Source: the human T2T-CHM13v2.0 reference genome, Homo sapiens. Taken from it: 64,000 bases of DNA. The stretch lies in contig CP068257.2 in the NCBI GenBank assembly GCA_009914755.4, positions 28,480,001-28,544,000 of the forward strand. The letters are read 5' to 3'. Positions within the stretch are counted from its first letter, which is position 1, and every line of letters starts with the position of its first letter. Shown here piece by piece: positions 3,296-55,590 of the stretch. A program made the position numbers and the translations under genes. The notes below the pieces were generated by a model. That model had not been told where the DNA came from and did no database searches. It saw only the letters and a program-made list of their open reading frames with translations.

Positions 3296-4814
3296 AGACA
3301 ATTCCTTTAAGTGAGAGAAGAGAGTTATAACTCGACTCTTAATAGAGCTATTTAGTATAATAGCAGGAACAAAATCATAATTGCAGGGTGGAAGGGAAGA
3401 AAGGCAAGGTGAAGTAATGTAGGTAGAAGATAAAACCAACATCATTGAAAGTGCCTATATAAAAGATGTGACAATAATTAGGAGCCAGAGGATAAAGTGG
3501 AGGCTTTCCCATTGCGCCTCCCCAAAAGAAGAGATTTCTTTACATATGTGAAAGTAAAGTATTTAAGTGGAAGTAAAGTATTTAACTTATTTGAGAAGTT
3601 AGGATTTAAAGCATACATGAAGTGGTAAGATGTGTCTCTTCTCCTTCACCAGGTTAACCTCTCTATCTGGATCTTTGTTAGTGCATCTTTTTAAATCTCT
3701 CCCAAAACCTCGTGTCATTAATTCTTTTTTTTTTTTTTTTGAGGTTTTCATTCTCAAGCAGCTGTCTGCACTGGCTTCTTGCCAGTGTCTGCAAACACAC
3801 TCTGGTCTCCCCATCCACAAGATATTTTCTCTTACTTGTGCTATACCTCTCAGCTACAAGCTCTCTCTTTTTCCCTCTTATAGAGTTTTCTTCCCTTACT
3901 TTTACTAGAGCTTCCTTTGTGTTCATAGTTCTGCACGCTCCACAAACACTGCTCTTGTCAAGATTATTAATGCGCCTTCATTACCAGATCAACCTGCTGA
4001 TGTCTTTTTCCTTCTTAAAACACTGTTTCTTTTTGGTTTTATGACACCACACTCCGGGCTTTCTTTTATCTCTCAGTATTCTTTGCTAATTGCCTCACTG
4101 TCCTCTCTTCCTCTCACTTGTTCTGCAATCCACCACGCTGCTCTCGTGGCTCCAGCTGTCATTCTTGTGCACTTGAGTCCCAATTCTGGATAAGGGCCTA
4201 CGTCTCTCCTGACTTGCAGACTGGATACTAGATCCCACACAACCCTCTAACTCAATGTTTCTATGGCTGAAGTCATATAGGATAGATATTCCCAAACCTG
4301 CTTTCCTCCTGGTGTTCTGTATCTCAATAACAGCCCACTCTCCGCTCAGTTATCCAAGCCAGAAATTTTGCTGTTATCCTTGCTCTCTCCTTCTTCCTCT
4401 TCTCTCACATCCCATCTGCGAGTAAGTCTTCTTGGTTTTATTTCCTAAATATCTACTAAATCCATCTATGTCATTTCACCTTGACTGCCACCATACTTAT
4501 TCAGGGCACTATAATTTTGGCCTAAATTGTTGTAGAAAATCCCACAACTGATGTCTTTGCTACTGGTTTTTGTCCTTTTCCACCTGTTTCCTTAACATCT
4601 CTTCTGCAATTCCTAAAGCAGCCCTAAAATATGAGCCAAGTCTTGTTATTTCCCTGGATGGAACACTTCCGCAGCTCTCCACTGGGCTCTTTATAACATA
4701 CAAATCCCTTAACATGCCTATGTATTAGCTTTTTAAAAGTATTAAATACTAAAAATATTAAATATCTGTGTGCCAGACATTGTCTAACATAACCACTGAG
4801 TTCCTCCAATGAAT

Positions 4815-5105
4815 GTTTTTGTTTTGTTTTGTTTTGTTTTTTTAGATGGAGTCTCACCCTGTCGATAGGCTGGAGTGCAGTGATGCAATCTCGGCTCACT
4901 GCAACCTCCACCTCCCAGGTTAAAGCTATTCTCCTGCCTCAACCTCCCGAGTAGCTGGGACTACAGGCCATGCCAGCTATTTTTTTGTATTTTTAGTAGA
5001 GACAGGGTTTCACCATGTTAGCCAGGATGGTCTTGATCTCTTGACCTTGTGATCCGCCTGCCTCGGCCTCCCAAAGTGCTGGGATTATAGGCATTGCGCC
5101 TGGCC
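4815..5105 (-). mobile_element. Alu SINE in antisense orientation (AluS-like), preceded by a (GTTTT)n/poly-T tail
   Basis: The reverse complement of the Alu consensus is visible: 'agatggagtctcaccctgtcgataggctggagtgcagtg...gcctcccaaagtgctgggattataggcattgcgcctggcc'. Confidence 0.9.
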
Positions 5106-8100
5106 CCATCCAATAATGGTTTAAATCAAATCGGAGTTACTGCAGTGCCTCTTTGTAGTCTCTGCTTTCCACGTCCTTCCTAGTAAATCCATGCGGACTT
5201 CTCCGGGAAAATCTCTTATTCCACCTCATGTCTGTGCTTCAGCCAGATTAAATCTTTTCTACATGCTCTCTCTTGTGAACATGCTCTTTTTTATGCCTAC
5301 ACCTAATTTCCATCCCACCTCACTGCCTTTTCTTAGCTAATTCTTACTAAAATTTTAGATCATAACTTGCATGTCACTTACTTCCGGAAGCTGGCACTAA
5401 TATGCTACCAATTCCAGCTTGCACATCAATGCTATGCACTTCCCCACCATTCGATATTTGCCACTCAAGGCATTTATGATATTTTATTATAATCACCTGT
5501 CTACCCCAATAGACGGTAAGCTTTCTGAGATCGTTACTTGTTTTGTCCACCTTTGTATCTGTCAAGGCAGTGGCCTGCAGAGAGTAAGTGCCTGGTGATT
5601 ATCCTTTGAATGAGTGAAGGAATGAATGGTTTTGATGTAGGTTTATGTCTATATAAGGAAGATAAATGAAGAAATTCAGGTTTCAATGCTCTTATGAGGT
5701 AAGAGCGTCTGTTCAGAATGTGAGTTTGGCCACAGGAAAACGTAAACAAATAGAAAGAAACATGGAGTTCTGGAGTAGCCTTAATGATCATCAAGAAGAA
5801 ATAGAATTGTTGAGGTATGTAAGGAAGCCAGAGTAAAATTGGATGGCAAAGACTGAACAATGATTTCTGCACCTTTCTCCAGAGGGAACTGTGCTACAGA
5901 GAAAGAGCTCAGAACTCAGAAGTTGGTTGATAGAAGCCCAAGGCTGAGAATCAATTCAGTGCTTAGAGTGGCATGCACTAGTATGTGTGTGTGTGCCTCT
6001 GTTTGTGTTGGAGATAGAGGTATCTGTGAGGTGGTGTACAGCATAGAAATGATAGTGGTTGTGAAGCCAACATATATATATATAACCAAACCTAAAATTT
6101 GAATGAAAAGAGATCCACTCTGCTGGAATAAATTAGATGATATGTGTGAATGGGAGATTTAGAATGGCTACAGGTTCCACTTCACTTCACTAGTGAAAGG
6201 AAGGTATTGAGAGAAGAGAAGCAGAGCATCAAAGAATTTATCAAATTTAGTATTTACTAATTTATCTCATTGCCTGTAATGACAGAAAACTACTTTTCAC
6301 AAATATAGGTGTTTCTATCCAAGTCAGAACTGGTCAATAAGAAATAGTTGATTCTTCACTGGCAAAATTGTGATCAATAGGATGATTGGAGTTTCTTAAA
6401 AAAAAATGTGAAGTCCCTTTCCATATTTCTTTTCTTGATTTCAATCAGTGTAGAAAACAAACACTGGAAGACTCATTTCCCCAGGGCAACTAATTTATCC
6501 ATTTAATGCACTCATTTTGGGATGAATCAATAAACTCTCCAAGTATTTATTGATCCCCTATTTTTGGCACAAGATGATGCTAAGTACTGAGAGTAAACAA
6601 GAAAAATATAAAGCATGATCTCTACCCTCTCAATCTGCAGTGTGCTCCTGTGTCAGTTAATCTGCCCTGATTTCATTGTCATTTCACTTTTGTATACTAG
6701 GAACAGTGTTGTGATGGTGTTAGTCGTTAACGGTATTAGTGACAAAGACTTTTACTGATAATTTCTTGCTATTTAGCTGGTCTTCCATAATTCTTTTTAG
6801 AGTCATCCATAACTACTGGCTCTTTTATGTAATCAACTGTCTTTTCATTTTTTTAAATAAAATGCTAATTTGATAGCATGTTGTAGGTGATAGTAAGCTT
6901 CTTGTGAATTTTAACATCAATATTCCCTATGCTATTCCGTAAAATGTGCTGTTTCTTACTTAAAGAAAGACCTGAATTATAGTGTTTTCTGAATTTGCAT
7001 TGTGATGTATTATAGCTTTGGTTTTATTAATATTCCAAGTAATAAAACCTCTTTAGTCTAATTAACCTTTTGTTCCTTCTGAAAGTTCTACAATTACATT
7101 ATCATTATTTATCATTAATTTGTACAATTATTCATTAAATCATTTATTTATCTTCCTTCTTAAATATAGCCATTATGTTTATGATTTAGAAATATTTTCC
7201 AAGTCTTACTTGGATTTTCCTATTTATATGTAGCTAAGCTTTATTGAATGAATTTTAATGACTTTTTCTGGAATTTCATAATTTAAACATGAAAGCTACA
7301 GAGCCATGATGCTACCTTTCACTTATGAGCTGAGATTTTGTCTAAATTTAGACTGAGAAGTGCAACTTCTATAACCACTATTGATGTTTATGTGGAAATA
7401 TTTTATTTAAGCCGTGAATCAATGTCACAAACCAAAGAAGATAAATGGCAGATACATTTGTTGCAAGACACCATCAGTGAATCTCATAGCCAGTGATGTG
7501 GTTAATTCATGAAAGAATGAAAATAAGACAAAGTAAGAACACCTATTATTTCTGCATTGATAACATCTTGCACTTTTATTCTAACAGATAATGCTCTGCC
7601 CATCTTTTCTCATAGTCAAAATATTGTCTGTAGGAATGCCTCTTTCTGGATTAAAGCAGTAGGCGCTTCTAGAAATCTTTTGAAACACTGGAGTGACTGG
7701 TCTAAAAAGCCAAGGCTATACTGCCTGAAAGCTATTTACAAGTGGGATAGTTACCCATTTGTGCAGAAATGGTTATATGAACCTTTATTAAGGTTAGTGG
7801 ACTCTGAAAAATCTTCTGGGTTTAAGTTTCTATTATTTGTCTAATATTTTCTTTGACATTTCGAAGAATTCTAACAATAAAAATTCTTAGATTCAAGCCT
7901 TATGTCTTCCCTTTCCATGGACATTCTGCTTTGATGGCTAAGTAAAAGAGACAAATCCCTATGGCTGTTGATGAGCAGTGCAGTAGAAAAATGATTTCTA
8001 ATCCCACTCAAAATTTTGCAAAATGCAAACTGATAAACATATGATCACTTCAGGAGCATTCAAAATGGCCACAATCACAGGCACGTTCTCTGCAGGACCT

Positions 8101-15975: not shown

Positions 15976-17832
15976 TATTTTCCTGCCTCCTGTCTGTATC
16001 AAAATGATGCTTCGAATTTAGTTTTAAAATTGGCATTATCATATCTTAAATTAAAAGTTTATCGATATGGGTCACCAACACATGTTTTTTAGGATTATGT
16101 TTCTAGGTGGCTTCCACTCAGTGCCTGCAGAAAAAAACAAAACAAAATAAAAAAAAAACCCAAAAAACAAAAACACTTGACTAGGAGTCTAGGTTTTCAG
16201 TTTTAATATCAAGTCAGTGAATAAAAAATTGTGAGCATTATGTCATCATATTGCTCTGAGATTTTTCTTATTCACCTATAAAATGAGACATTATATTTAT
16301 ATCACTTAAGGTACCTTATAAGTCTAAAGTTCCATCTTAGTTTACATAAGAGCTTCACACTTAAAGTGTCATAGACCAATAGCAATGGTGTCACCTGGGA
16401 GCTTCTTGGAAACACAGAATCTCATGTCAGACCTTAGCTCAGATCTCATCTGTACATTAAAATTAGAAAAGCACTGTTGTAGAGTGTATATGTTAAATTG
16501 CATCACATAACCATAAATTGGATGCATACTTTTTTTATAATAACAGAGTTGGTCATTAATGTGACCTATTATTATTATTTGCCCAGAAAGCTATATATTA
16601 GCAGTCTATTATTTACTGAGTATATAATTCTCATCTTGAATTTTCCCCTCTCCTCTTATACATGGGAGGTATGGCATTTTGGTCCTCCTATTTTCTATCT
16701 GTATTTGCCTGCTTCAGACCTAGGGATTTTGGGGGAAATTTTACACAATAGGACAAAAGCAGTACATGGACACTATTGTCTTTTATGGTTTCATCCCAGG
16801 ACTGTAGTCTCTATCTCTTCTGCACATTCTAAGTGAATAATAGACTAAACTATACTGACATTTCTTTCTGAAATGAACAAAATATTTGGTTTAATTAGTT
16901 TTTCCTGTTGCATTGCTTGACATTAGCTATAATTAATGTGTTAAATGGTACATAAGTTTTCAGAGTTTCTTAATAGACAACAATCTTGGAACTCACCATT
17001 TTTCTTTTCTTCTAGGACAGATGGCTGTGTTAGTTACTTAATGTCATTGGTGATTTTCACTATGTTATGTTAATTCTCTCCTTGTATGGCATTACTCTGT
17101 CTTGCCAATTTCTAAAAAATGTGACTATATGATATTTAAAAAGTAAAATATTCAATCAAATGTTCCCTGATTTTTCTGTTAAAATTAATTATTTTAAATG
17201 AACTACTCATTTCATTGAGTGAAACAGTAAACTGATTGATGGAGTGATTTGACATTATATTAACACAGGCTTGTTAATTTCTCCTTTACCATTCTCACAA
17301 ACTAAACTGAGAAAAGTATACTTCAGCCTGCCTCTATTTCTGTGTTAAAAATCTTCATCAATCTTAAGTAATTGACATCTTCATTATTCTTCAATTATAC
17401 CACTTTGTTCCTGTATATCCAAGTGAGTTTATTTTATCACATTTCTTTCCACTGCTAAGATCTTCCTTTTTCAACAAGTCCCTACTTCCGTCAGTTCAAG
17501 TGCAAGTGAATCTATAACAAGGCACATTATTGTGTCATAGAAAGCTGTAAACATCTTAGTTTAGAAAGCAGAAATATTGATTTAGAATTACTGTTCAGTA
17601 TGCCTTCTCATGAAAATCAAAGGGCTAAAGAAAGTCAATAGGCTACTGTCTTCAAATCATCCACATATATTGCATATTTCTGGATTCAACATGCTTTTTT
17701 TTCCTCCTTGAAAGTAAGTTGTAGTGTTCCCTTTCTATCAGGTACAGAAGGCCAAAGCCTCATTTCTTTGTTATTTCAATAGCTTTTGGGGTACAAGTTG
17801 TTTTTAGTCACATGGATAAATTCTATAGTGGT

Positions 17833-20172
17833 GGGTATTAGTCTGTTTTCACATTGCTATAAAGATACTACCTGAGACTGGGTAATTTATAAACAAAAGT
17901 GCCTTAATTGACTCACAGTTCCATATGGCTGGCGAGGCCTCTGGAAACTAACAATAATGGCAGAAGGTGAAGGGGAAGCAGGCACCTTTTTCACAAGGTG
18001 ACAGGGAGACACAGAGAGAAGGTGGAAGCACCGCTTATCAAACAGCCGTATCTCCTCAGAACTCATTCAGTGTCATGAGAACAGCAAGGGGGAAATCTGC
18101 CCCCATGATCCACTCACCCTCCATCAAGCCCCTCCTTTGACTCGTGGGAATTACAATTCGGGATGAGATTTGGGTGTGGACACAGAGACAAGCCATATAA
18201 TTCCATCCCCCGCCTGGCCCTTCCCAAATTTCATGTCTTTTCACAATTCAAAACCAATCATGTGTTCTTAACAGTGCCCCAAAGTCTTAATTCATTCCAG
18301 CGTTAACTCAAAAGTCCAAGTCCAAAGTCTCATCTGAGACAAGGCAAATCCCTTCTGCCGATAAGCCTGTAAAATCAAAAGCAAGTTAGTTACTTCCAAG
18401 ATACAATGAGGGTGTAGGAATTAGGTAAGTGTTCCCATTACAAATAACCCAACTGGGCAGTCATTAAACCTGAAAGCTTCCAAATCTCCTTTGACTCTAT
18501 GTCTCACATCCAGGTCATGCTGATGCAAGAGGTGGGCTCCCATGCCCTTGGGCAGCTCTGCCCCTGTGGTTCTCCAGGGTACAACCCCTGTGGCTGCTTT
18601 CTCAGGCTGGCATTGAGTGCCTGTGACTTTTCCAGGCATATGGTGCAAGCTATTGGTGGATCTATCTTTCTGGGGCCTGCAGGATAGTGGCCTTCTTCTC
18701 ACAGTCTACTAGGCAGTGCCACAGTGGAGATTATGTGTGGGGCCTCCAACCCTACATTTCCCTTCCACACTGCCCTAACAGAGGCTCTCCATGAGGGTTC
18801 TAACCCTGTGGCAGATTTCTGCCCGGACATCCAGGCATTTCCTGGACATCTTCCTTTTCCAGGAGGTTTGGGAACCTCTACCTAGATTTCATTTCCTCTG
18901 AGATCTAGGCAGAGGTTCCCAAAGCTCAACTCTTGTCTTCTGTGTACCCAAAGGCCCAACACCATGTGGAAGCCCCAAGGCTTGCACTCTCTGAAGTAAC
19001 GGCAAGTGTGGTACTTTGGCCCCTTTTAACCATGGCTGGATTTGGAGCACCTGGGATGCAGGGCACCAACTCCTGAAGCTGCAGAGAGCAGTATGGCTCT
19101 GGGCCCAGCTCATGAATTCATTTTTCCCCCCTGGGCCTTTGGGTCTGGGATGGGAGGGACTGCCTCAGAGAAGACCTCTGACCTGAAATGAAGATATTTT
19201 CTCCATTCTCTTGGCTATTAACATTTGGTTCCTCTTTATTCATGCAAATTTCTGCAGCCCTCTTCAATTCCTCTCCAGAAAATGGGATTTTCTTTTCTAC
19301 TGCAATGTCAGGCTGCAAATTTTTGAAACCTTTATGCTCGGCTTCCCTTTTAAACATAAGCTCCAATTTTAAATCATCTCTTTGTGAATGCATATTACTG
19401 AATGCTTTCAGAATAAGACAGGTCACCTCTTGAATGCTTTGCTGCTTAGAATTTTTTTCTGCCAGATACCCTAAACTATGTCTCTCAAGTCAAAAGTTCC
19501 ACAGATAATTAGGGGTAAAATTTTGCCAGTCTCTTTGCTAAAGCATAGCATGTGTGACTCTTATTCCAGTTCCCAATAAGTTCCTCATCTCCATCTGAGA
19601 CCACCTCAATCTGGACTTCATTGTCTATATCACTATTAGCATTTTGGTCAAAGCCATTTAACAAGTCTCTAGGAAGTTCCAAACTTTCCCACATGGTCTT
19701 ATCTTCTTCTGAGCCCTCCAAACTGATCCAACCTCTGCCTGTTCCAAAGTCCCTTCCACATTTTTATGTTATCTTTATAGCAGTATCCAACTCTTGATAC
19801 TAGTTTTCTGTATTACTCAGTTCTCACACTGCTGTAAACATACTACCTGAGACTTGGTACTTTATAAAGAAAAGAGGTTTAATTAACTCACAGTTTTACA
19901 TCTCTGGTGTTTAAGCCTCAGGAAACTTACAATCATGATGGAAGCAAAAGGAAAGCAAGGTATGTCTTACATGGTGGCAGGAGAGAAAGAGCATGCAGAG
20001 GAAACTGCCACTTTTTAAAACTATCAGATCTTGTAAGAACTCACTCACTATCAGGAGAATAGCAAGGGGGAAAACTGCCCCTGGGATCCAATCACCTCCT
20101 ACCAGATCCCTCCTCAACAATAGGGATTACAATTTGAGATGAGATTTGGGTGGGGACACAGAGCCAAACAAC
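17833..20172 (-). mobile_element. Full-length THE1/MST-class MaLR (ERVL-MaLR) element: LTR 17833-18199, internal region 18200-19808, LTR 19809-20172
   Basis: Both LTRs are the reverse complement of the THE1/MST LTR consensus ('tgtattagtc..ttctcacactgct..aaagatac.acctgagactgggtaatttataaa...ctcacagtt...catggctgg.gaggcctc.ggaaact.acaat.atggcagaagg...gattacaatt.gagatgagatttgggtgtggacacagagccaaaccatat'). The internal part matches THE1-int ('cccaaatttcatgtcttttcacaattcaaaaccaatcatgtgttcttaacagtgccccaaagtcttaattcattccagc...tctcatctgagacaaggcaa'). The flanks share 'tggtg', the expected 5-bp duplication inside the L1 target. Confidence 0.8.
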
Positions 20173-20914
20173 AACATGGTGTATTCTGAGATTCTAGTGC
20201 AACTATTACCTGAGCAATGCACACTTTAGCCAATATGTAGTATTTTTATTCCTCCCTTTGTTGAGCTCCCAAAGTCCACTATATCCTTCTGTATATCTTT
20301 GAGTCCTCATAGCTTAGCTCCCATGTATAAATGACAACTTACAGTGTTTGGTTTTCCATTCCTGAGTTATTTCACTTAGAATGATGGCCTCCAGCTCCAT
20401 CCAAGTTGCTGCAATATTTGTTTCTTTTTATGGCTGGCTAGGTAGTATTTCATGGTGTATATATACCACATTTTCTTTAACTACTTATTGGTCAATGAGC
20501 AGTTAGGTTGAAATTGTGAATTGTGCTGCTATAAACATGTGTGTTCTTGTGTCTTTTTCGTATAATGGCTTTCTTTTCCTTTGAGTAGACAGCCAATAGT
20601 GGGATTGTTAGATCAAATGGTAGATGTACTTTTAGTTCTTTAAATAATCTCCATACTGTTTTCATAGAGGTTACACTAATTTACATTCCCATCAGCATGA
20701 AAGTGTTCCCTTCCCACCACATCCATGCCAACATGAATTGTTCTTCAACTTTTTAATTATGGCCATTCTTGTGAGAGTAAGGTAATATCTTATTGTGGTT
20801 TCAATTTGCATTTCCCTGATGGTTAGTGATGCTGAGCATCTTTTCATATGTTTGTTGGCCATTTGTATGTCTTCTTTTGAGAATTGTCTATTTACGTCCT
20901 TTGCCCACCAAAAG

Positions 20915-21510
20915 AACATGGTACTGATTTACGAAATAGGCAGACAAATGGAACAGAATAGAGAACCTAGAAATAAAGCCACATACTTACAGCCAACTGT
21001 TCTTCAACAAAGCAAACAAAAACATAAATTGGGAAAGGACACTCTATTCAATAAATTGTACTGTGAAAACAGGCAAGCCACATGCAGAAGAATGAAACTG
21101 GATCCCCATCATTCACCTTTTATAAAAATCAACTCAGGATGATTTAATAACCAAATTAACAATTTTTTTCCCAAACTTCTAGCTCAAGTTTGGCATCAAA
21201 GATTTAAAATGAAGGCCTGAAACCATAAAAATTTTCAAAGATAACAGTGGAAAAATTCTGGACATTGGCATGGACAAATAATTCGTGACTAAGACTCCAA
21301 AAGCAAATGCATCAAAAACAATAAACAAATGATTCCTAATTAAACTAAAAGTTTCTGCAGAGCAAAATAAATAATCAGCAGAGTAAACAGGCAACCCACA
21401 GAATGGGAGAAAATATTTGCAAACTATGTATCTGTCAAAAGACTAATATCCAGAATCTACAAAACACTCAAACAAATCAGCAAGAAAAAAACAAGTAATC
21501 CTTTAAAAGA
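20915..21510 (+). mobile_element. L1 ORF2 segment in sense orientation, i.e. inverted relative to the adjacent antisense L1 body (5' inversion)
   Basis: 'gaacatggtactgatttacgaaataggcagacaaatggaacagaatagagaacctagaaataaagccacatacttacagccaactgttcttcaacaaagcaaacaaaaacataaattgggaaaggacactctattcaataaattgtactgtgaaaac...cagaatctacaaaacactcaaacaaatcagcaagaaaaaaacaag' matches L1 ORF2 at approximately L1 positions 5230-5870 in sense. Confidence 0.7.
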
Positions 21511-24500
21511 CTTATTTTTATTACCTAGTCTGTCATTACATAAATTAAATTGCCATCACTTACTCACAGTGTGTTATTTTCACTTGGACTTTAGAGACAA
21601 GATTCCACGTAATGAGAAGTAACAAAAATCCAAGCATAGTCTATACTGAGTGATTATCTATTTCTGCATTCCCAAGTGATACTATAATAAATGGACTTTG
21701 TCTGCATGTTATGAGCTGGCTTATACATAAGCATGGAAGTAAACCCATCCCAACTTATAAGCAAAGATGCAAATTTTACTCTCCAAACTTCCATAAGAGA
21801 GATGCAGAGAGAGAAATTTCTTTATGTGGGTTAATAGCATCATCTTTATCCTTTGTTAAAAGTTAAAAAGCATAACAGATGGATAATAGACGTCAGTGAT
21901 TTCAAATCCTGAAAAGAACCTGCTAGTCAGAGAGGTTCACTCAGCACTCGGAAATTGATGAATGAAGTAATCATTCTAGCAGCAATTGTCTTCAGCTGGT
22001 CCCATTCATAGGTATCCTATTTCTATCCTAATTTAGATTTGCTTCAGTGGCTGGCTAGATTTTTCTTTTGAAGTCACTATATATTCCCATGCGGCTCCAT
22101 TCAAATTCAAAACAATCATTATTAATATCAAATATTGGGCTATAGAAATTCTAGAAGTACTCATCTTATGCTTTATTTGAGGTACTAGACATGTCATAGG
22201 ATAGCATAGGGGAAGAACTAGTTATTCCAACTGATACTTTTTAAGTATATGCAAATTTTAAAAATATCCTGGGGAAGTGTTGAGCTATTTTTAAAAGCAT
22301 AGAAAGATTAGAGGAGCACAGAAATGTATAGAAAAACTTCTGTTGTCTGCATTTTCTAAATCACATGAACACTTTACTGAGATATGCAAATTTGAAGTGT
22401 ATTATTTTGCATGGTGGCTCACAGGGTTGCTCTCTGGAGCAACTCCTGTGATCAAAGTGACCAACATCAATGCTTATGTTAATGGATCTCCCCACCTACA
22501 ACTTGTTAAACTCCATAGAATTCCTCCATTTCAATAACTTCCACCCAGTTTCATTTTATTGTCCTTTACGTGCTGTCATACCTTGGCCCACACCATCACT
22601 TGAACTACTTTCATTCCATATCCTGTACTAGAAAATTATTTTATAACAATATCATGTACTTCATTCATTCTCTTTCCCGCATTGAACCAGATCTTCACTG
22701 TCATTATGACCTTCACTTCTTCTATAAATGTTTTTTCTTATCATCTTTGAGAACTCCCCTAGCTTTATTTCTTCATTTCCTGGTTTTCACCATGAATCAT
22801 TTCAACAATAATTTTACTAAGGACTTAGAATCAATCCCTTGTCTTCTAATAGTTTGCAATATTTTACAAATACACGCACAATCTTGAGTAAACATTATCT
22901 CATATACCTCAGCTATCAAACATTGTTGTGAGTAAAAAAGAACAATAAATGAATCATCAATAAACAACTAACAATGTCAATTCTCATAATTTAAAAAACT
23001 GGCAGCATCTTCACTTTTTCTCAGCATTCCTGTGACAATTAGCTGAGTTGATGTTTGAAAAAGACAGAATAGGCTGTGTTTTCCTTCATGAACAATCTCA
23101 AAATGTTGCTGGCTTAAAATAACAAATGCTATAGATCTCATGCTCGTTCATGTAGGTAGGGGATGGTTTTGCTGACCCAGGGAGATGGACTCTGTGCCCT
23201 TTAATAGTGCGTCTGTCACAACAAGCCTTCACGGTTCTCTACCACAAGTAATGGAAGCATAGCGCTGTGAACTAGAGGGAGAACTGAAACTTTTAGTAAT
23301 CACTAGAAATAGTTTCTACAATATTCTGATCTTTCTCATCTTTTCCAAATCTAAGATCTATTTCCCATTCTTTGCCATCTCAGTAGATAATGTTGCTCCC
23401 TATCTTATTTTGCAAACAGATGCTAAACAACTTATCACCCAATTTCTTTCCACCCCACATTTCCCTGTACATTCATTCATTTTTTTTTCTTGTTTGGCAT
23501 TCCTATAATCGTAAAGAGTTTAGAATCAGAGGCATGCATGGTTGATGTTGAAAAACAGAGAATGGCTGTTAGGAAAATAGAACTAGTTCATGAATCACAA
23601 GAGAATGAAAACTCATATATCGTAATATGATGAGGTCACTAACAAAACTGTTTAGGTGAGATGTGAAATCTGTAATCCAGGGTAGTAGTAAATGTCAGAG
23701 ACATTAAAGTAATTGAAGGCAGGGATATGGGAAGAGTAACAACTATAATTTCACCTTCACAACAGTAATCAGTGGCCCTAAAATTGTGTTTACAGTTGTT
23801 TTGGATTCTCGGATTGGGTCTACCAACACCCATTCCAACCCTTTACAGAGTTGAAAGATAGAAAACCAAATTAACAATTTTTTTCCCACGACTTCTAGCT
23901 CGAGTTTGGCATCTGATTTTGATTTTACCTTTCAGATGCATTCCCATGATACCTGGATTAGGAACTGAATCATAGAGACAGGCTTGGTGGAATGTATCCA
24001 CTTTGTTGGACAAGACCATGGAAGATGTGGCATCATCAGCATCTTTGCATTCATCAGCTCACTGTAGCAGCAGCAGCAGTTTTACCAAACATGGCCCACA
24101 CAGTGTGGTTTAACAGTCAGGAGGAGGAGCAGCAGCTACCTGATTGCCAGCTTTCTAAAGGGGAGATCACTAACTTCAACAGAAAATGAATAATTGATGA
24201 ATGGGGATTGTTTCTAGGAACTCAGTCTAATGCAGTCTCCAGGCTTTCCAACAACTCTGTAAACTCCTAAGTCCTTGTACCAAGTGTGTATTGGGCTAAA
24301 TCAGCTAACATCATTTCTATTGTTAACAACTGAACAATGACCACCATCTTGGTTGATAGAATTGGTTACATGCAACAGACCTTCAGGAAAATGGGAATTT
24401 GGAAAAGTCTACCTCAAGTATTTGGATCTGAAGGCAGTGAGAAGCCAATTAACGTTCGAAGATAGGGCAGGTATGAGATGCCAAATAAAGGCAAGTCGTT

Positions 24501-42720: not shown

Positions 42721-43077
42721 TGTATTAGTCCATTCTCACACTGCTATAAGGACATATCCGAGACTGGGTAATTTATAAAGAAAAAGTTTAATGGACTCAG
42801 TTCCACATGGCTGGAGAGGCCTCACAATCATGGCAGAAGGTGAAGAAAGAGCAAAGGTACGTGATACACGGTGGCAGGCAAGAGAGCATGTTCAGGGGAA
42901 CTACTCTGTAAAATCACAAGATTTCATGAGAACTCACTCACTGTCACAAGAACAGCATGGAGGTAACCACCCCCATGATTCAATTACCTCTCACCAGGTC
43001 CCTCTCATGACACGTGGAGGTCACGGGAACTACAATTTAAGATGAGATTTGGGTGGGGACACAGCCAAACCATATCA
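42721..43077 (-). mobile_element. Solitary THE1/MST-class MaLR LTR, antisense
   Basis: 'tgtattagtccattctcacactgctataaggacatatccgagactgggtaatttataaagaaaaagtttaatggactcagttccacatggctggagaggcctcacaatcatggcagaaggtgaag...ggtccctctcatgacacgtggaggtcacgggaactacaatttaagatgagatttgggtggggacacagccaaaccatatca'. Confidence 0.85.
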
Positions 43078-55094: not shown

Positions 55095-55590
55095 TCTTGG
55101 TACATATACATCATGGAGTACTATGCAGCCATATACAATAATTACATCCTGTCATTTACAGCAACATGGATGCAGCTGGAGGCCATTATCCTAAGTGAAT
55201 TAATACAGGAACAGAAAACCAAATTTCACATGTTCTCATTTGTAAGTGGGAGCTAAACATCAGGTACATGTAGAGATAAAGATGACAACAACAGACACTG
55301 GGGACTGCTAGAGAGGGAAGGGAAGAGGCAGAAAAGGGTTGAAAAGCCAACGATTGGGTACTATGCGCACTGTCTGGGTGATGGGATCATTCACACCCAG
55401 ATCTCAGCATCAGTAAACGACTTACACATGTGCCACCTCCACCTCCAGGGTTCAAATGATTCTCCTGCCTCAGCCTCCCTGGTAGCTGGGACTACAGGTG
55501 TGTGCCATCTGTAAAATAAAAGTTGAAGTTATAAAAATGTAAGAGAAATGAATAAAAATAATAAAATAAAATAAAATGAAATTTCATCTT
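55095..55590 (+). mobile_element. L1 3'-end fragment (sense) with an embedded Alu-derived piece of about 80 bp and an A-rich tail
   Basis: 'gtactatgcagccatatacaataattacatcctgtcatttacagcaacatggatgcagctggaggccattatcctaagtgaattaatacaggaacagaaaaccaaatttcacatgttctcatttgtaagtgggagctaaacatcaggtacat...ctgtctgggtgatgggatcattcacacccagatctcagcatcagtaaac'. Then 'ccacctccagggttcaaatgattctcctgcctcagcctccctggtagctgggactacaggtgtgtgccatc'. Then '(ataaa/aaaat)n'. Confidence 0.75.

What the first reader, a model, noticed from the sequence alone, without database searches (positions are those of the whole stretch)
17776..21510. Three-layer nested retroelement: antisense L1 with 5' inversion (twin priming) carrying a full-length THE1/MST MaLR provirus with a 5-bp target-site duplication
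The L1 3' end (17776-17832) is interrupted by a complete LTR-internal-LTR MaLR element (17833-20172). Both LTRs are about 365 bp, the THE1-int-like internal region is about 1.6 kb, and the flanks share 'tggtg'. The L1 then resumes exactly where it left off, at L1 sequence '..ctatagtggtg|aattctgag..'. At 20915 the antisense L1 body (L1 positions about 5885 to the 3' end) abuts a sense-oriented L1 segment (about 5230-5870). The outer end of the inverted segment (about 5870) and the start of the direct segment (about 5885) are almost contiguous in L1 coordinates. That is the signature expected from twin-priming inversion with a deletion of about 15 bp. This gives a clean relative chronology: L1 insertion with inversion came first, then MaLR retrotransposition into the L1 3' UTR.
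Basis: partly seen in the sequence, partly recalled or inferred. Interest (0 to 1): 0.6.

Follow-up and report, generated by a model that had tools for sequence, protein, structure and literature searches.

The report
Inverted L1 fragment split by MaLR
This is an ordinary piece of primate "junk DNA" history: a truncated LINE-1 copy that was inserted with its front part flipped, and later had a small 2.3-kb LTR retroelement (MaLR) jump into its tail.

Summary

- **Two L1 pieces:** window 17771-21510 holds two pieces of one old L1, a direct piece on the minus strand and an inverted piece on the plus strand.
  - Direct piece: 17771-17833 plus 20182-20908. It covers ORF2 residues 1072-1275, the stop codon and about 195 nt of 3' UTR.
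  - Inverted piece: 20909-21510, covering ORF2 residues 884-1071.
- **Contiguity:** against an intact human L1, the outer end of the inverted piece and the start of the direct piece are consecutive bases. Nothing is lost, or at most 5 nt if the shared AAAG belongs to the target.
- **Junction and flanks:** the inner junction is at 20908/20909, not 20915, with a 2-nt overlap. A decayed 14-nt target duplication (11/14) ending in TTTTT/A flanks the whole L1.
- **MaLR:** it occupies 17834-20176, with LTRs of 367 and 368 bp (73% identical) and a 1608-bp internal part. A perfect TGGTG duplication of L1 sequence flanks it.
- **Exact resumption:** uninterrupted L1 copies from elsewhere show the L1 resumes exactly where it left off.
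- **Independent assembly:** a separately assembled contig is 100% identical across 20128-21637.

The order is L1 twin-priming insertion first, MaLR second. This is ordinary and already understood.

The parts
17754..17767 (.). Candidate L1 target-site duplication, left copy (AAAGCCTCATTTCT)
   Evidence: It matches 21506-21519 at 11/14 positions, and this is the best ungapped match between the two 40-nt flanks. About 5% of shuffles and 3.75% (75 of 2000) of random window pairs reach that score. It lies exactly where a duplication should lie.
17768..17770 (-). Remnant of the L1 poly(A) tail; its boundaries with the target duplication and with the L1 end are ambiguous
   Evidence: The minus strand reads ...ATTGAAATAA-CAA-AGAAATGAGGCTTT. 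External L1 copies end at ...TTGAAATAA followed by A/T-rich tails.
17771..17833 (-). Last 63 nt of the L1 3' UTR (direct segment, part 1); its final 5 nt on the plus strand, TGGTG (17829-17833), are copy 1 of the MaLR target duplication
   Evidence: It aligns with the 3' ends of L001-L004 up to reconstruction position 788-790, which is window 17771-17773.
17834..18200 (-). MaLR 3' LTR in element orientation, 367 bp
   Evidence: It is 73% identical to 19809-20176. It is also about 70% identical to a third LTR at 42721-43075. Its terminal dinucleotides have decayed, TG to TT and CA to CC.
18201..19808 (-). MaLR internal region, 1608 bp. It has a polypurine tract at 18201-18225 (sense GGGAAGGGCCAGGCGGGGGATGGAA) and a primer-binding-site-like sequence at 19785-19802 (sense TAGTATCAAGAGTTGGAT)
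   Evidence: Direct reading. No Pfam domain is found in any sense frame. No long ORF is present.
19809..20176 (-). MaLR 5' LTR in element orientation, 368 bp, with TG...CA termini intact
20177..20181 (.). MaLR target-site duplication, copy 2 (TGGTG). This is L1 sequence that occurs once in uninterrupted L1 copies
20182..20908 (-). L1 direct segment, part 2: 3' UTR 20182-20313, ORF2 stop codon TAA 20314-20316, and ORF2 residues 1275 down to 1072 at 20317-20907 (plus the third base of codon 1071 at 20908)
   Evidence: tblastn against human ORF2p, E = 9e-40. blastn against L007 bases 2226-2855.
20907..20908 (.). Inner inversion junction. The 2 nt AC are compatible with both L1 pieces (microhomology)
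   Evidence: L007 base 1663 aligns to window 20907 and L007 base 2226 aligns to window 20908. The reference codon for T884 is ACC.
20909..21510 (+). Inverted L1 segment, sense on the plus strand: ORF2 residues 884-1071, which is L007 bases 1663-2225
   Evidence: It has no 3' UTR or poly(A) of its own.
21149..21197 (+). 49-nt insertion inside the inverted L1 segment. It is absent from L1 references and copied from 23864-23913
   Evidence: 47/50 identical, same orientation. It shows as a 52-nt gap against L007.
21506..21519 (.). Candidate L1 target-site duplication, right copy (AAAGACTTATTTTT). It ends in TTTTT followed by A, an L1 endonuclease-type site. Its first 4-5 nt overlap L1 sequence (AAAAG), giving primer-template microhomology

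Best explanation
Two successive retrotransposition events in a primate genome explain the region.

**Event 1: L1 insertion by target-primed reverse transcription with twin priming.**
- The plus strand was nicked at ...TTTTT/A, and its T-run primed on the L1 poly(A). This produced the direct cDNA: the 3' UTR and ORF2 back to codon 1072.
- After second-strand cleavage 14 nt away, the other target 3' end annealed inside the same L1 RNA at ...AAAAG (codons 1070-1071). It primed a second cDNA that ran about 560 nt further upstream, to codon 884.
- The first reverse transcriptase stopped where the second primer sat. That is why the two pieces are consecutive in L1 coordinates.
- The two cDNA ends were joined at a 2-nt microhomology, which leaves the 5' part inverted.
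- The result was an insert of about 1.34 kb flanked by a 14-nt target duplication.

**Event 2: MaLR integration.**
- Later, a non-autonomous ERVL-MaLR element (LTR, 1.6-kb internal part, LTR; 2343 bp) was integrated by a retroviral-type integrase.
- The site is 58 nt from the L1 3' end, on the same strand, and 5 nt of L1 sequence (TGGTG) were duplicated.
- Both elements then decayed neutrally.

**Shown versus inferred.**
- Shown: the anatomy, the L1 coordinates, the colinearity and the duplications.
- Inferred: the priming steps, from the established twin-priming model.
For: - **ORF2 assignment and orientation:**
- **Consecutive reference bases:** the pieces meet at L007 bases 2225 and 2226.
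- **Colinearity:** the virtually un-inverted L1 aligns as a single colinear match of about 1200 nt to more than 25 intact L1 copies.
- **No separate 3' end:** the inverted piece has no 3' UTR or poly(A) of its own. No further L1 homology lies left of 17771 or right of 21510.
- **Similar divergence:** K2P to the same L1 references is 0.28-0.30 for the inverted piece and 0.33-0.37 for the direct piece.
- **L1 target duplication:** an 11/14 match lies at the expected positions and ends in a TTTTT/A endonuclease-type site.
- **MaLR structure:**
  - LTR pair E = 3e-53.
  - Perfect 5-bp duplication and TG...CA termini on one LTR.
  - Polypurine tract next to the 3' LTR.
  - L1 exactly colinear with uninterrupted copies once the MaLR and one TGGTG are removed.
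- **Ages agree:** the LTR-LTR raw difference is 0.267, about 0.13 per LTR. The L1 3' UTR differs by about 0.16 from a crude consensus.
- **Independent assembly:** a second contig is identical across the junction.
- **Frequency:** twin priming occurs in 18-22% of human L1 insertions, and 46% of inverted insertions have the two cDNA ends within 20 bp of each other (PMC12016303).
Against: - The L1 target duplication is decayed (3 mismatches in 14) and only marginally better than chance on its own (about 5%).
- The poly(A) tail is almost gone.
- The LTRs are only 73% identical. That is high divergence for one provirus, though it fits an age of roughly 50-80 million years.
- L1 and MaLR subfamilies could not be assigned, because no Dfam or Repbase library is available here. 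The 'same subfamily' test therefore rests on divergence to young L1 references only.
- The direct piece is slightly more diverged than the inverted one, by about 1-2 standard errors.
Confidence: 0.9

Rival explanations
1. Two independent L1 insertions landed head to head: one antisense 5'-truncated copy, and one sense fragment that later lost its 3' end.
For: Both pieces are ordinary L1 fragments. The divergence estimates differ slightly, K2P 0.29 against 0.33-0.37.
Against: - The sense piece stops inside ORF2, with no 3' UTR or poly(A).
- Its end and the start of the other piece are consecutive bases of the L1 reference. By chance, adjacency within a few nt on a 6-kb element is of the order of 1 in 1000.
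- One candidate target duplication flanks the whole composite.
Confidence: 0.03
2. A normally inserted 5'-truncated L1 (ORF2 codon 884 to the 3' end) later suffered a local DNA inversion of its first 560 nt through breakage and rejoining, unrelated to retrotransposition.
For: The final sequence would look the same. The 2-nt microhomology at 20907-20908 also fits end joining.
Against: - One breakpoint would have to fall exactly at the L1/target-duplication boundary, with no loss of flanking or L1 bases.
- No inverted repeats are present that could mediate it: 0 inverted pairs in 17000-22500.
- Twin priming gives this structure in about one fifth of L1 insertions (PMC12016303).
Confidence: 0.04
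3. The LTR-internal-LTR unit is not one integration. It would be a recombinant or composite of two different MaLR copies, which would explain the low LTR identity.
For: LTR-LTR identity is only 73%, K2P 0.34.
Against: - A perfect 5-bp duplication of L1 sequence sits at the two outer LTR ends.
- The L1 is exactly colinear once the unit is removed.
- Both LTRs share the same insertion and deletion pattern relative to the third LTR in the window.
- The polypurine tract and the primer-binding-site-like sequence sit in the right places.
- The total length of 2343 bp matches the classical 2.3-kb THE1/MST unit (my own knowledge).
Confidence: 0.03

Closest known systems
5'-inverted L1 insertions made by twin priming (Ostertag and Kazazian 2001; surveyed in PMC12016303 and PMC2837659)
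   Same: - The inverted 5' piece lies next to a direct 3' piece that carries the 3' end.
- The L1 coordinates are adjacent at the outer end and at the start of the direct piece.
- There is short microhomology at the junction.
- A target duplication flanks the composite, and an endonuclease-type TTTT/A site is present.
   Different: Nothing is different in kind. Here the two cDNAs are exactly contiguous (0 nt gap or overlap), whereas published sets show a spread of gaps and overlaps with a median overlap of 12 bp. The copy is old and decayed, so the poly(A) and the target duplication are eroded.
ERVL-MaLR elements with internal sequence (MST-int/THE1-int type; PMC10735291, PMC5753468)
   Same: - LTRs of about 365 bp in direct orientation.
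- An internal part of about 1.6 kb without a recognisable pol or env.
- TG...CA termini, a 5-bp target duplication, and a polypurine tract before the 3' LTR.
- A total length of 2.3 kb.
   Different: The subfamily was not assigned with a curated library. From my memory of the consensus sequences, both LTRs carry the ...CTCAGGAAACTTACAATCATGG... stretch typical of MST rather than THE1. The LTR at 42721-43075 lacks it and looks THE1-like.
Nested transposon insertions used for relative dating ('transposition in transposition', TinT; used in PMC10735291)
   Same: A younger element interrupts an older one, which gives an unambiguous order of events.
   Different: This is a single locus, not a genome-wide statistic.

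Membership tests
LINE-1 insertion with 5' inversion (twin priming) | Both pieces are L1 sequence | tested here: met
   - PDB ORF2p match, E = 3e-28.
- tblastn places residues 1072-1275 on the minus strand and 884-1071 on the plus strand.
- blastn to intact L1 contigs.
LINE-1 insertion with 5' inversion (twin priming) | The pieces have opposite orientation, and the inverted piece lies on the 5' side of the direct piece that carries the 3' UTR | tested here: met
LINE-1 insertion with 5' inversion (twin priming) | The outer end of the inverted piece and the start of the direct piece are adjacent in L1 coordinates, allowing a small gap or overlap | tested here: met
   They fall on consecutive reference bases, L007 2225 and 2226. 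An external old L1 (L004) also spans the virtual junction colinearly.
LINE-1 insertion with 5' inversion (twin priming) | One target-site duplication flanks the whole composite | tested here: inconclusive
   The match is 11/14 at 17754-17767 and 21506-21519. About 5% of shuffles reach it. The position is as expected.
LINE-1 insertion with 5' inversion (twin priming) | L1 endonuclease-type cleavage site (TTTT/A) at the first-strand nick | tested here: met
   The reconstructed target reads ...ACTTATTTTT/ATTACC on the priming strand. PMC12016303 lists TTTT/A as the consensus.
LINE-1 insertion with 5' inversion (twin priming) | Both pieces derive from one source RNA (same subfamily and same age) | tested here: inconclusive
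   K2P to the same L1PA references is 0.28-0.30 against 0.33-0.37. The values are similar, but no subfamily library is available.
LINE-1 insertion with 5' inversion (twin priming) | Poly(A) tail at the 3' end of the direct piece | tested here: inconclusive
   Only an A-rich remnant is left (AACAAAGAAA on the minus strand). This is expected for an old copy.
ERVL-MaLR (MST/THE1 group) element with internal sequence | Two LTRs of about 350-370 bp in direct orientation | tested here: met
   LTRs of 367 and 368 bp, 73% identical, E = 3e-53.
ERVL-MaLR (MST/THE1 group) element with internal sequence | LTR termini TG...CA | tested here: met
   The 5' LTR has TG...CA intact. The 3' LTR reads TT...CC, one substitution at each end.
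ERVL-MaLR (MST/THE1 group) element with internal sequence | 5-bp target-site duplication (class III ERV integrase; my own knowledge) | tested here: met
   TGGTG on both sides, 5/5. The same 5 nt occur once in uninterrupted L1 copies.
ERVL-MaLR (MST/THE1 group) element with internal sequence | Internal part of about 1.6 kb without pol or env, with a primer binding site after the 5' LTR and a polypurine tract before the 3' LTR | tested here: met
   - The internal part is 1608 bp, with no Pfam domain.
- The polypurine tract is read directly.
- The sequence TAGTATCAAGAGTTGGAT resembles a tRNA-Leu primer binding site only by my recollection, not by a test.
ERVL-MaLR (MST/THE1 group) element with internal sequence | Sequence similarity to the curated MST/THE1 LTR and internal consensus sequences | not testable with these tools
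   - No Dfam or Repbase library is available.
- Literature text searches for LTR strings found nothing.
- The only indirect support is a third related LTR in the window, about 70% identical.
- The rest is my memory of the consensus sequences.

The most novel reading that the evidence does not exclude
The only thing here that routine repeat annotation would miss is the 49-nt patch at 21149-21197 inside the inverted L1 piece.
- It is a near-exact copy (47/50) in the same orientation of unique-looking sequence 2.7 kb downstream (23864-23913).
- It is much younger than the L1.
- I read it as a germline templated insertion, made by microhomology-mediated repair or replication template switching.

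The evidence does not exclude that this is a recent, possibly lineage-specific event. If so, it could serve as a natural example of short-range templated insertion. The exact (0-nt) contiguity of the two L1 cDNAs, with 4-5 nt of target/L1 microhomology, is a clean textbook instance of the twin-priming model rather than anything new.
Probability: 0.5. Interest if true: 0.25.

Novelty: already known. Interest (0 to 1): 0.1.

Why it matters
It matters little beyond annotation.
- The locus is a tidy worked example of two well-understood processes: L1 twin priming, and LTR-element integration into an older repeat.
- The base-exact contiguity of the two L1 cDNAs, and the AAAG shared between the target duplication and L1, fit the model in which the first reverse transcriptase halts at the internally annealed second primer.
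- Nested insertions like this one are the raw data for relative dating of repeat families.
- No new mechanism, gene or regulatory function is indicated.

Tried and rejected
- **Second copy in the window:** I searched for another copy of the L1 sequence across the MaLR site, allowing 3 mismatches. None was found.
- **Viral contig scans:** scans for the L1 junction string and for a conserved MaLR LTR string found nothing.
- **Literature sequence search:** a full-text search for MaLR LTR strings, to obtain a named consensus, gave no hits. The supplement of PMC10735291 holds no sequences.
- **Twin-priming paper:** the original paper (PMC311219) is not held.
- **Pfam:** the three sense frames of the MaLR internal part gave no domain. 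The only hit was a noise match to DUF3994, E = 0.17.
- **Rfam and tandem repeats:** Rfam at the gathering threshold on the whole window gave 0 matches. Tandem Repeats Finder on 16-25 kb gave 0 arrays.
- **MaLR in fetched contigs:** a search of the 84 fetched loci gave only one weak 95-nt hit.
- **Exact-ORF look-ups:** the 115-aa ORF across the junction is not on record. The 75-aa ORF was found once and gave the confirming contig.
- **Rejected readings:** an assembly artefact, two independent L1 insertions, a post-insertional inversion, and a composite of two MaLRs. See the rival explanations.

Full report
**What is there**

The window is AT-rich DNA (62% A+T) that carries primate-type interspersed repeats. 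Between 17.75 and 21.52 kb the sequence resolves into the parts below. All coordinates are on the plus strand.

| Coordinates | Part |
|---|---|
| 17754-17767 | Candidate L1 target duplication, left copy |
| 17771-17833 | Last 63 nt of an L1 3' UTR, antisense |
| 17834-20176 | A 2343-bp LTR element, antisense |
| 20177-20181 | Repeat of the 5 nt TGGTG |
| 20182-20908 | Rest of the L1 3' UTR and the C-terminal 204 codons of ORF2, antisense |
| 20909-21510 | An L1 ORF2 piece in sense orientation |
| 21506-21519 | Candidate L1 target duplication, right copy |

**The LTR element**

- The repeat finder and BLAST show two direct repeats, 17834-18200 and 19809-20176. They share 265/363 positions (73%), E = 3e-53.
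- A global alignment gives a raw difference of 0.267 and K2P of 0.336.
- In element orientation (minus strand), the 5' LTR keeps TG...CA. The 3' LTR reads TT...CC.
- The internal part is 1608 bp.
  - It ends in a polypurine tract, GGGAAGGGCCAGGCGGGGGATGGAA, directly before the 3' LTR.
  - It starts 6 nt after the 5' LTR with TAGTATCAAGAGTTGGAT. From memory this resembles a tRNA-Leu primer binding site. That is a lead, not a test.
  - It has no long ORF and no Pfam domain.
- A third related LTR lies at 42721-43075, about 70% identical. This shows the LTR is a dispersed repeat.
- TGGTG flanks the element on both sides.
- Size, LTR length, missing pol/env and the 5-bp duplication fit an ERVL-MaLR unit of the MST/THE1 group (family outline in PMC10735291 and PMC5753468).
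- I could not compare it with curated consensus sequences. From memory, both LTRs look MST-like rather than THE1-like.

**The L1 resumes exactly**

- A scan of metagenome contigs for CTATAGTGGTGNATTCTGAG returned four contigs (L001-L004). All carry L1 3' ends homologous to the window copy.
- In the multiple alignment, the window sequence with the MaLR and one TGGTG removed reads CTCAGAATACACCACTATAGAAT. The four uninterrupted copies read CTCAGAATTCACCACTATAGAA(T/C).
- There is no gap and no extra base, and CACCA (the complement of TGGTG) occurs once in those copies.
- So the MaLR integrated into a pre-existing L1, 58 nt from its 3' end, and duplicated 5 nt of L1 sequence. This fixes the order of events without any molecular clock.

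**The L1 inversion**

- I verified the C-terminal 446 residues of human ORF2p against PDB chains 8uw3 and 9k6g and used them in tblastn.
  - The minus-strand piece 20907->20317 is residues 1072-1275, E = 9e-40.
  - The plus-strand piece is residues 884-1017 and 1017-1070.
- A scan of GTDB genome contigs with the same protein returned 80 loci of human L1 contamination in 'bacterial' assemblies. These served as intact L1 DNA references.
- Flipping the plus-strand piece back and joining it to the direct piece gives a sequence that aligns as one colinear match of about 1200 nt to more than 25 of these references.
- Against L007, the inverted piece covers reference bases 1663-2225 and the direct piece starts at 2226. 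The two pieces are consecutive, with nothing lost or duplicated.
- If the first four bases of the right target duplication (AAAG, identical to L1 ...AAAAG) came from the target, the gap is at most 5 nt.
- The inner junction is at 20908/20909, with a 2-nt AC overlap.
- In L1.3 numbering (ORF2 start at 1991, from my own knowledge), the pieces are about 4640-5203 and 5204-end.
- The inverted piece has no 3' UTR or poly(A). No other L1 homology adjoins the composite.

**Same element?**

- K2P distances to three intact L1 references are 0.28-0.30 for the inverted piece (n = 550). For the ORF2 part of the direct piece they are 0.33-0.37 (n = 598).
- These are similar, within about 1-2 standard errors, and different parts of ORF2 need not evolve at equal rates.

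**Target site**

- The best ungapped match between the two 40-nt flanks is AAAGCCTCATTTCT (17754-17767) against AAAGACTTATTTTT (21506-21519), 11/14.
- 100 of 2000 shuffles and 75 of 2000 random window pairs reach that score. This is weak on its own, but the match sits exactly at the expected boundaries.
- The right copy ends in TTTTT followed by A, the L1 endonuclease consensus (TTTT/A in PMC12016303).
- The poly(A) is reduced to a short A-rich remnant.

**Mechanism**

- The anatomy is what the twin-priming model predicts.
  - One cDNA is primed on the poly(A).
  - A second cDNA is primed by the other target end annealed inside the RNA, here at AAAAG with 4-5 nt of complementarity.
  - The first reverse transcriptase stops at that primer, which explains the base-exact contiguity.
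  - The two cDNAs are joined at a 2-nt microhomology.
- Twin priming accounts for 18-22% of human L1 insertions. In 46% of those, the two cDNA ends lie within 20 bp of each other (PMC12016303).

**Ages**

- The LTR-LTR K2P of 0.336 gives about 0.17 substitutions per site per lineage since integration. At 2.2e-9 per site per year (my assumption) that is roughly 75 million years, with a wide error. This fits MST-type elements.
- The L1 3' UTR differs by about 0.16 (raw) from a crude leave-one-out consensus of the four external copies. This is comparable to or slightly above the per-LTR value of 0.13.
- The clock agrees with the structural order but does not resolve it independently.

**Not an artefact**

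An exact-ORF look-up found a JGI metagenome contig (L085, 1510 bp). It is 100% identical to window 20128-21637. That stretch covers the MaLR LTR end, the TGGTG, the direct L1 piece, the inversion junction, the inverted piece with its patch, and the right flank.

**Extra event**

- Inside the inverted piece, 49 nt (21149-21197) are absent from all L1 references.
- They are 47/50 identical, in the same orientation, to 23864-23913.
- Two of the three differences fall at CpG sites of the downstream copy.
- This looks like a much younger short templated insertion copied from 2.7 kb away.

**Verdict**

It is an ordinary, already understood arrangement of nested repeats.

Noticed in passing
window 21149-21197 and 23864-23913: A 49-nt insertion inside the inverted L1 piece is absent from all L1 references. 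It is 47/50 identical, in the same orientation, to sequence 2.7 kb downstream. Two of the three differences are at CpG sites of the downstream copy. It is probably a young templated insertion (repair or template switching) with at most 2 nt of junction microhomology.
   Followed up: partly
window 42721-43075: A third MaLR LTR is about 70% identical to both LTRs of the studied element. It lacks the 9-nt AGGAAACTT stretch that both of those carry. From memory that makes it THE1-like, while the studied element looks MST-like. I saw no obvious 5-bp duplication at its ends.
   Followed up: partly
window 41149-41526 (minus strand) and 55098-55306 (plus strand): Two further L1 ORF2 fragments are present. 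One covers residues about 1012-1141, and the other covers residues 1224-1275 plus the start of a 3' UTR. Neither is connected with the studied element.
   Followed up: no
loci L005-L084 (GTDB genome contigs): At least 107 contigs filed under bacterial or archaeal species genomes (Streptomyces, Mycobacterium, Psychrobacter and others) encode L1 ORF2. Most are 92-100% identical to the human protein, and some are 57-65% identical in mouse-associated isolates. This is host or laboratory DNA contamination of public assemblies, a known problem. Here it was useful as a source of reference L1 DNA.
   Followed up: partly
window 18863-18927: The MaLR internal region contains a short imperfect inverted repeat: GGGAACCTCTACCTAGAT ... 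ATCTAGGCAGAGGTTCCC, about 80% over 65 nt in a self-comparison. Its significance is unknown, and it may be a feature of the MST-int family.
   Followed up: no
loci L001 and L004: Two metagenome contigs carry L1 3' ends that share a 15-nt deletion and near-identical flanks, with 9% difference between them. They are probably orthologous or paralogous copies from related host genomes.
   Followed up: no
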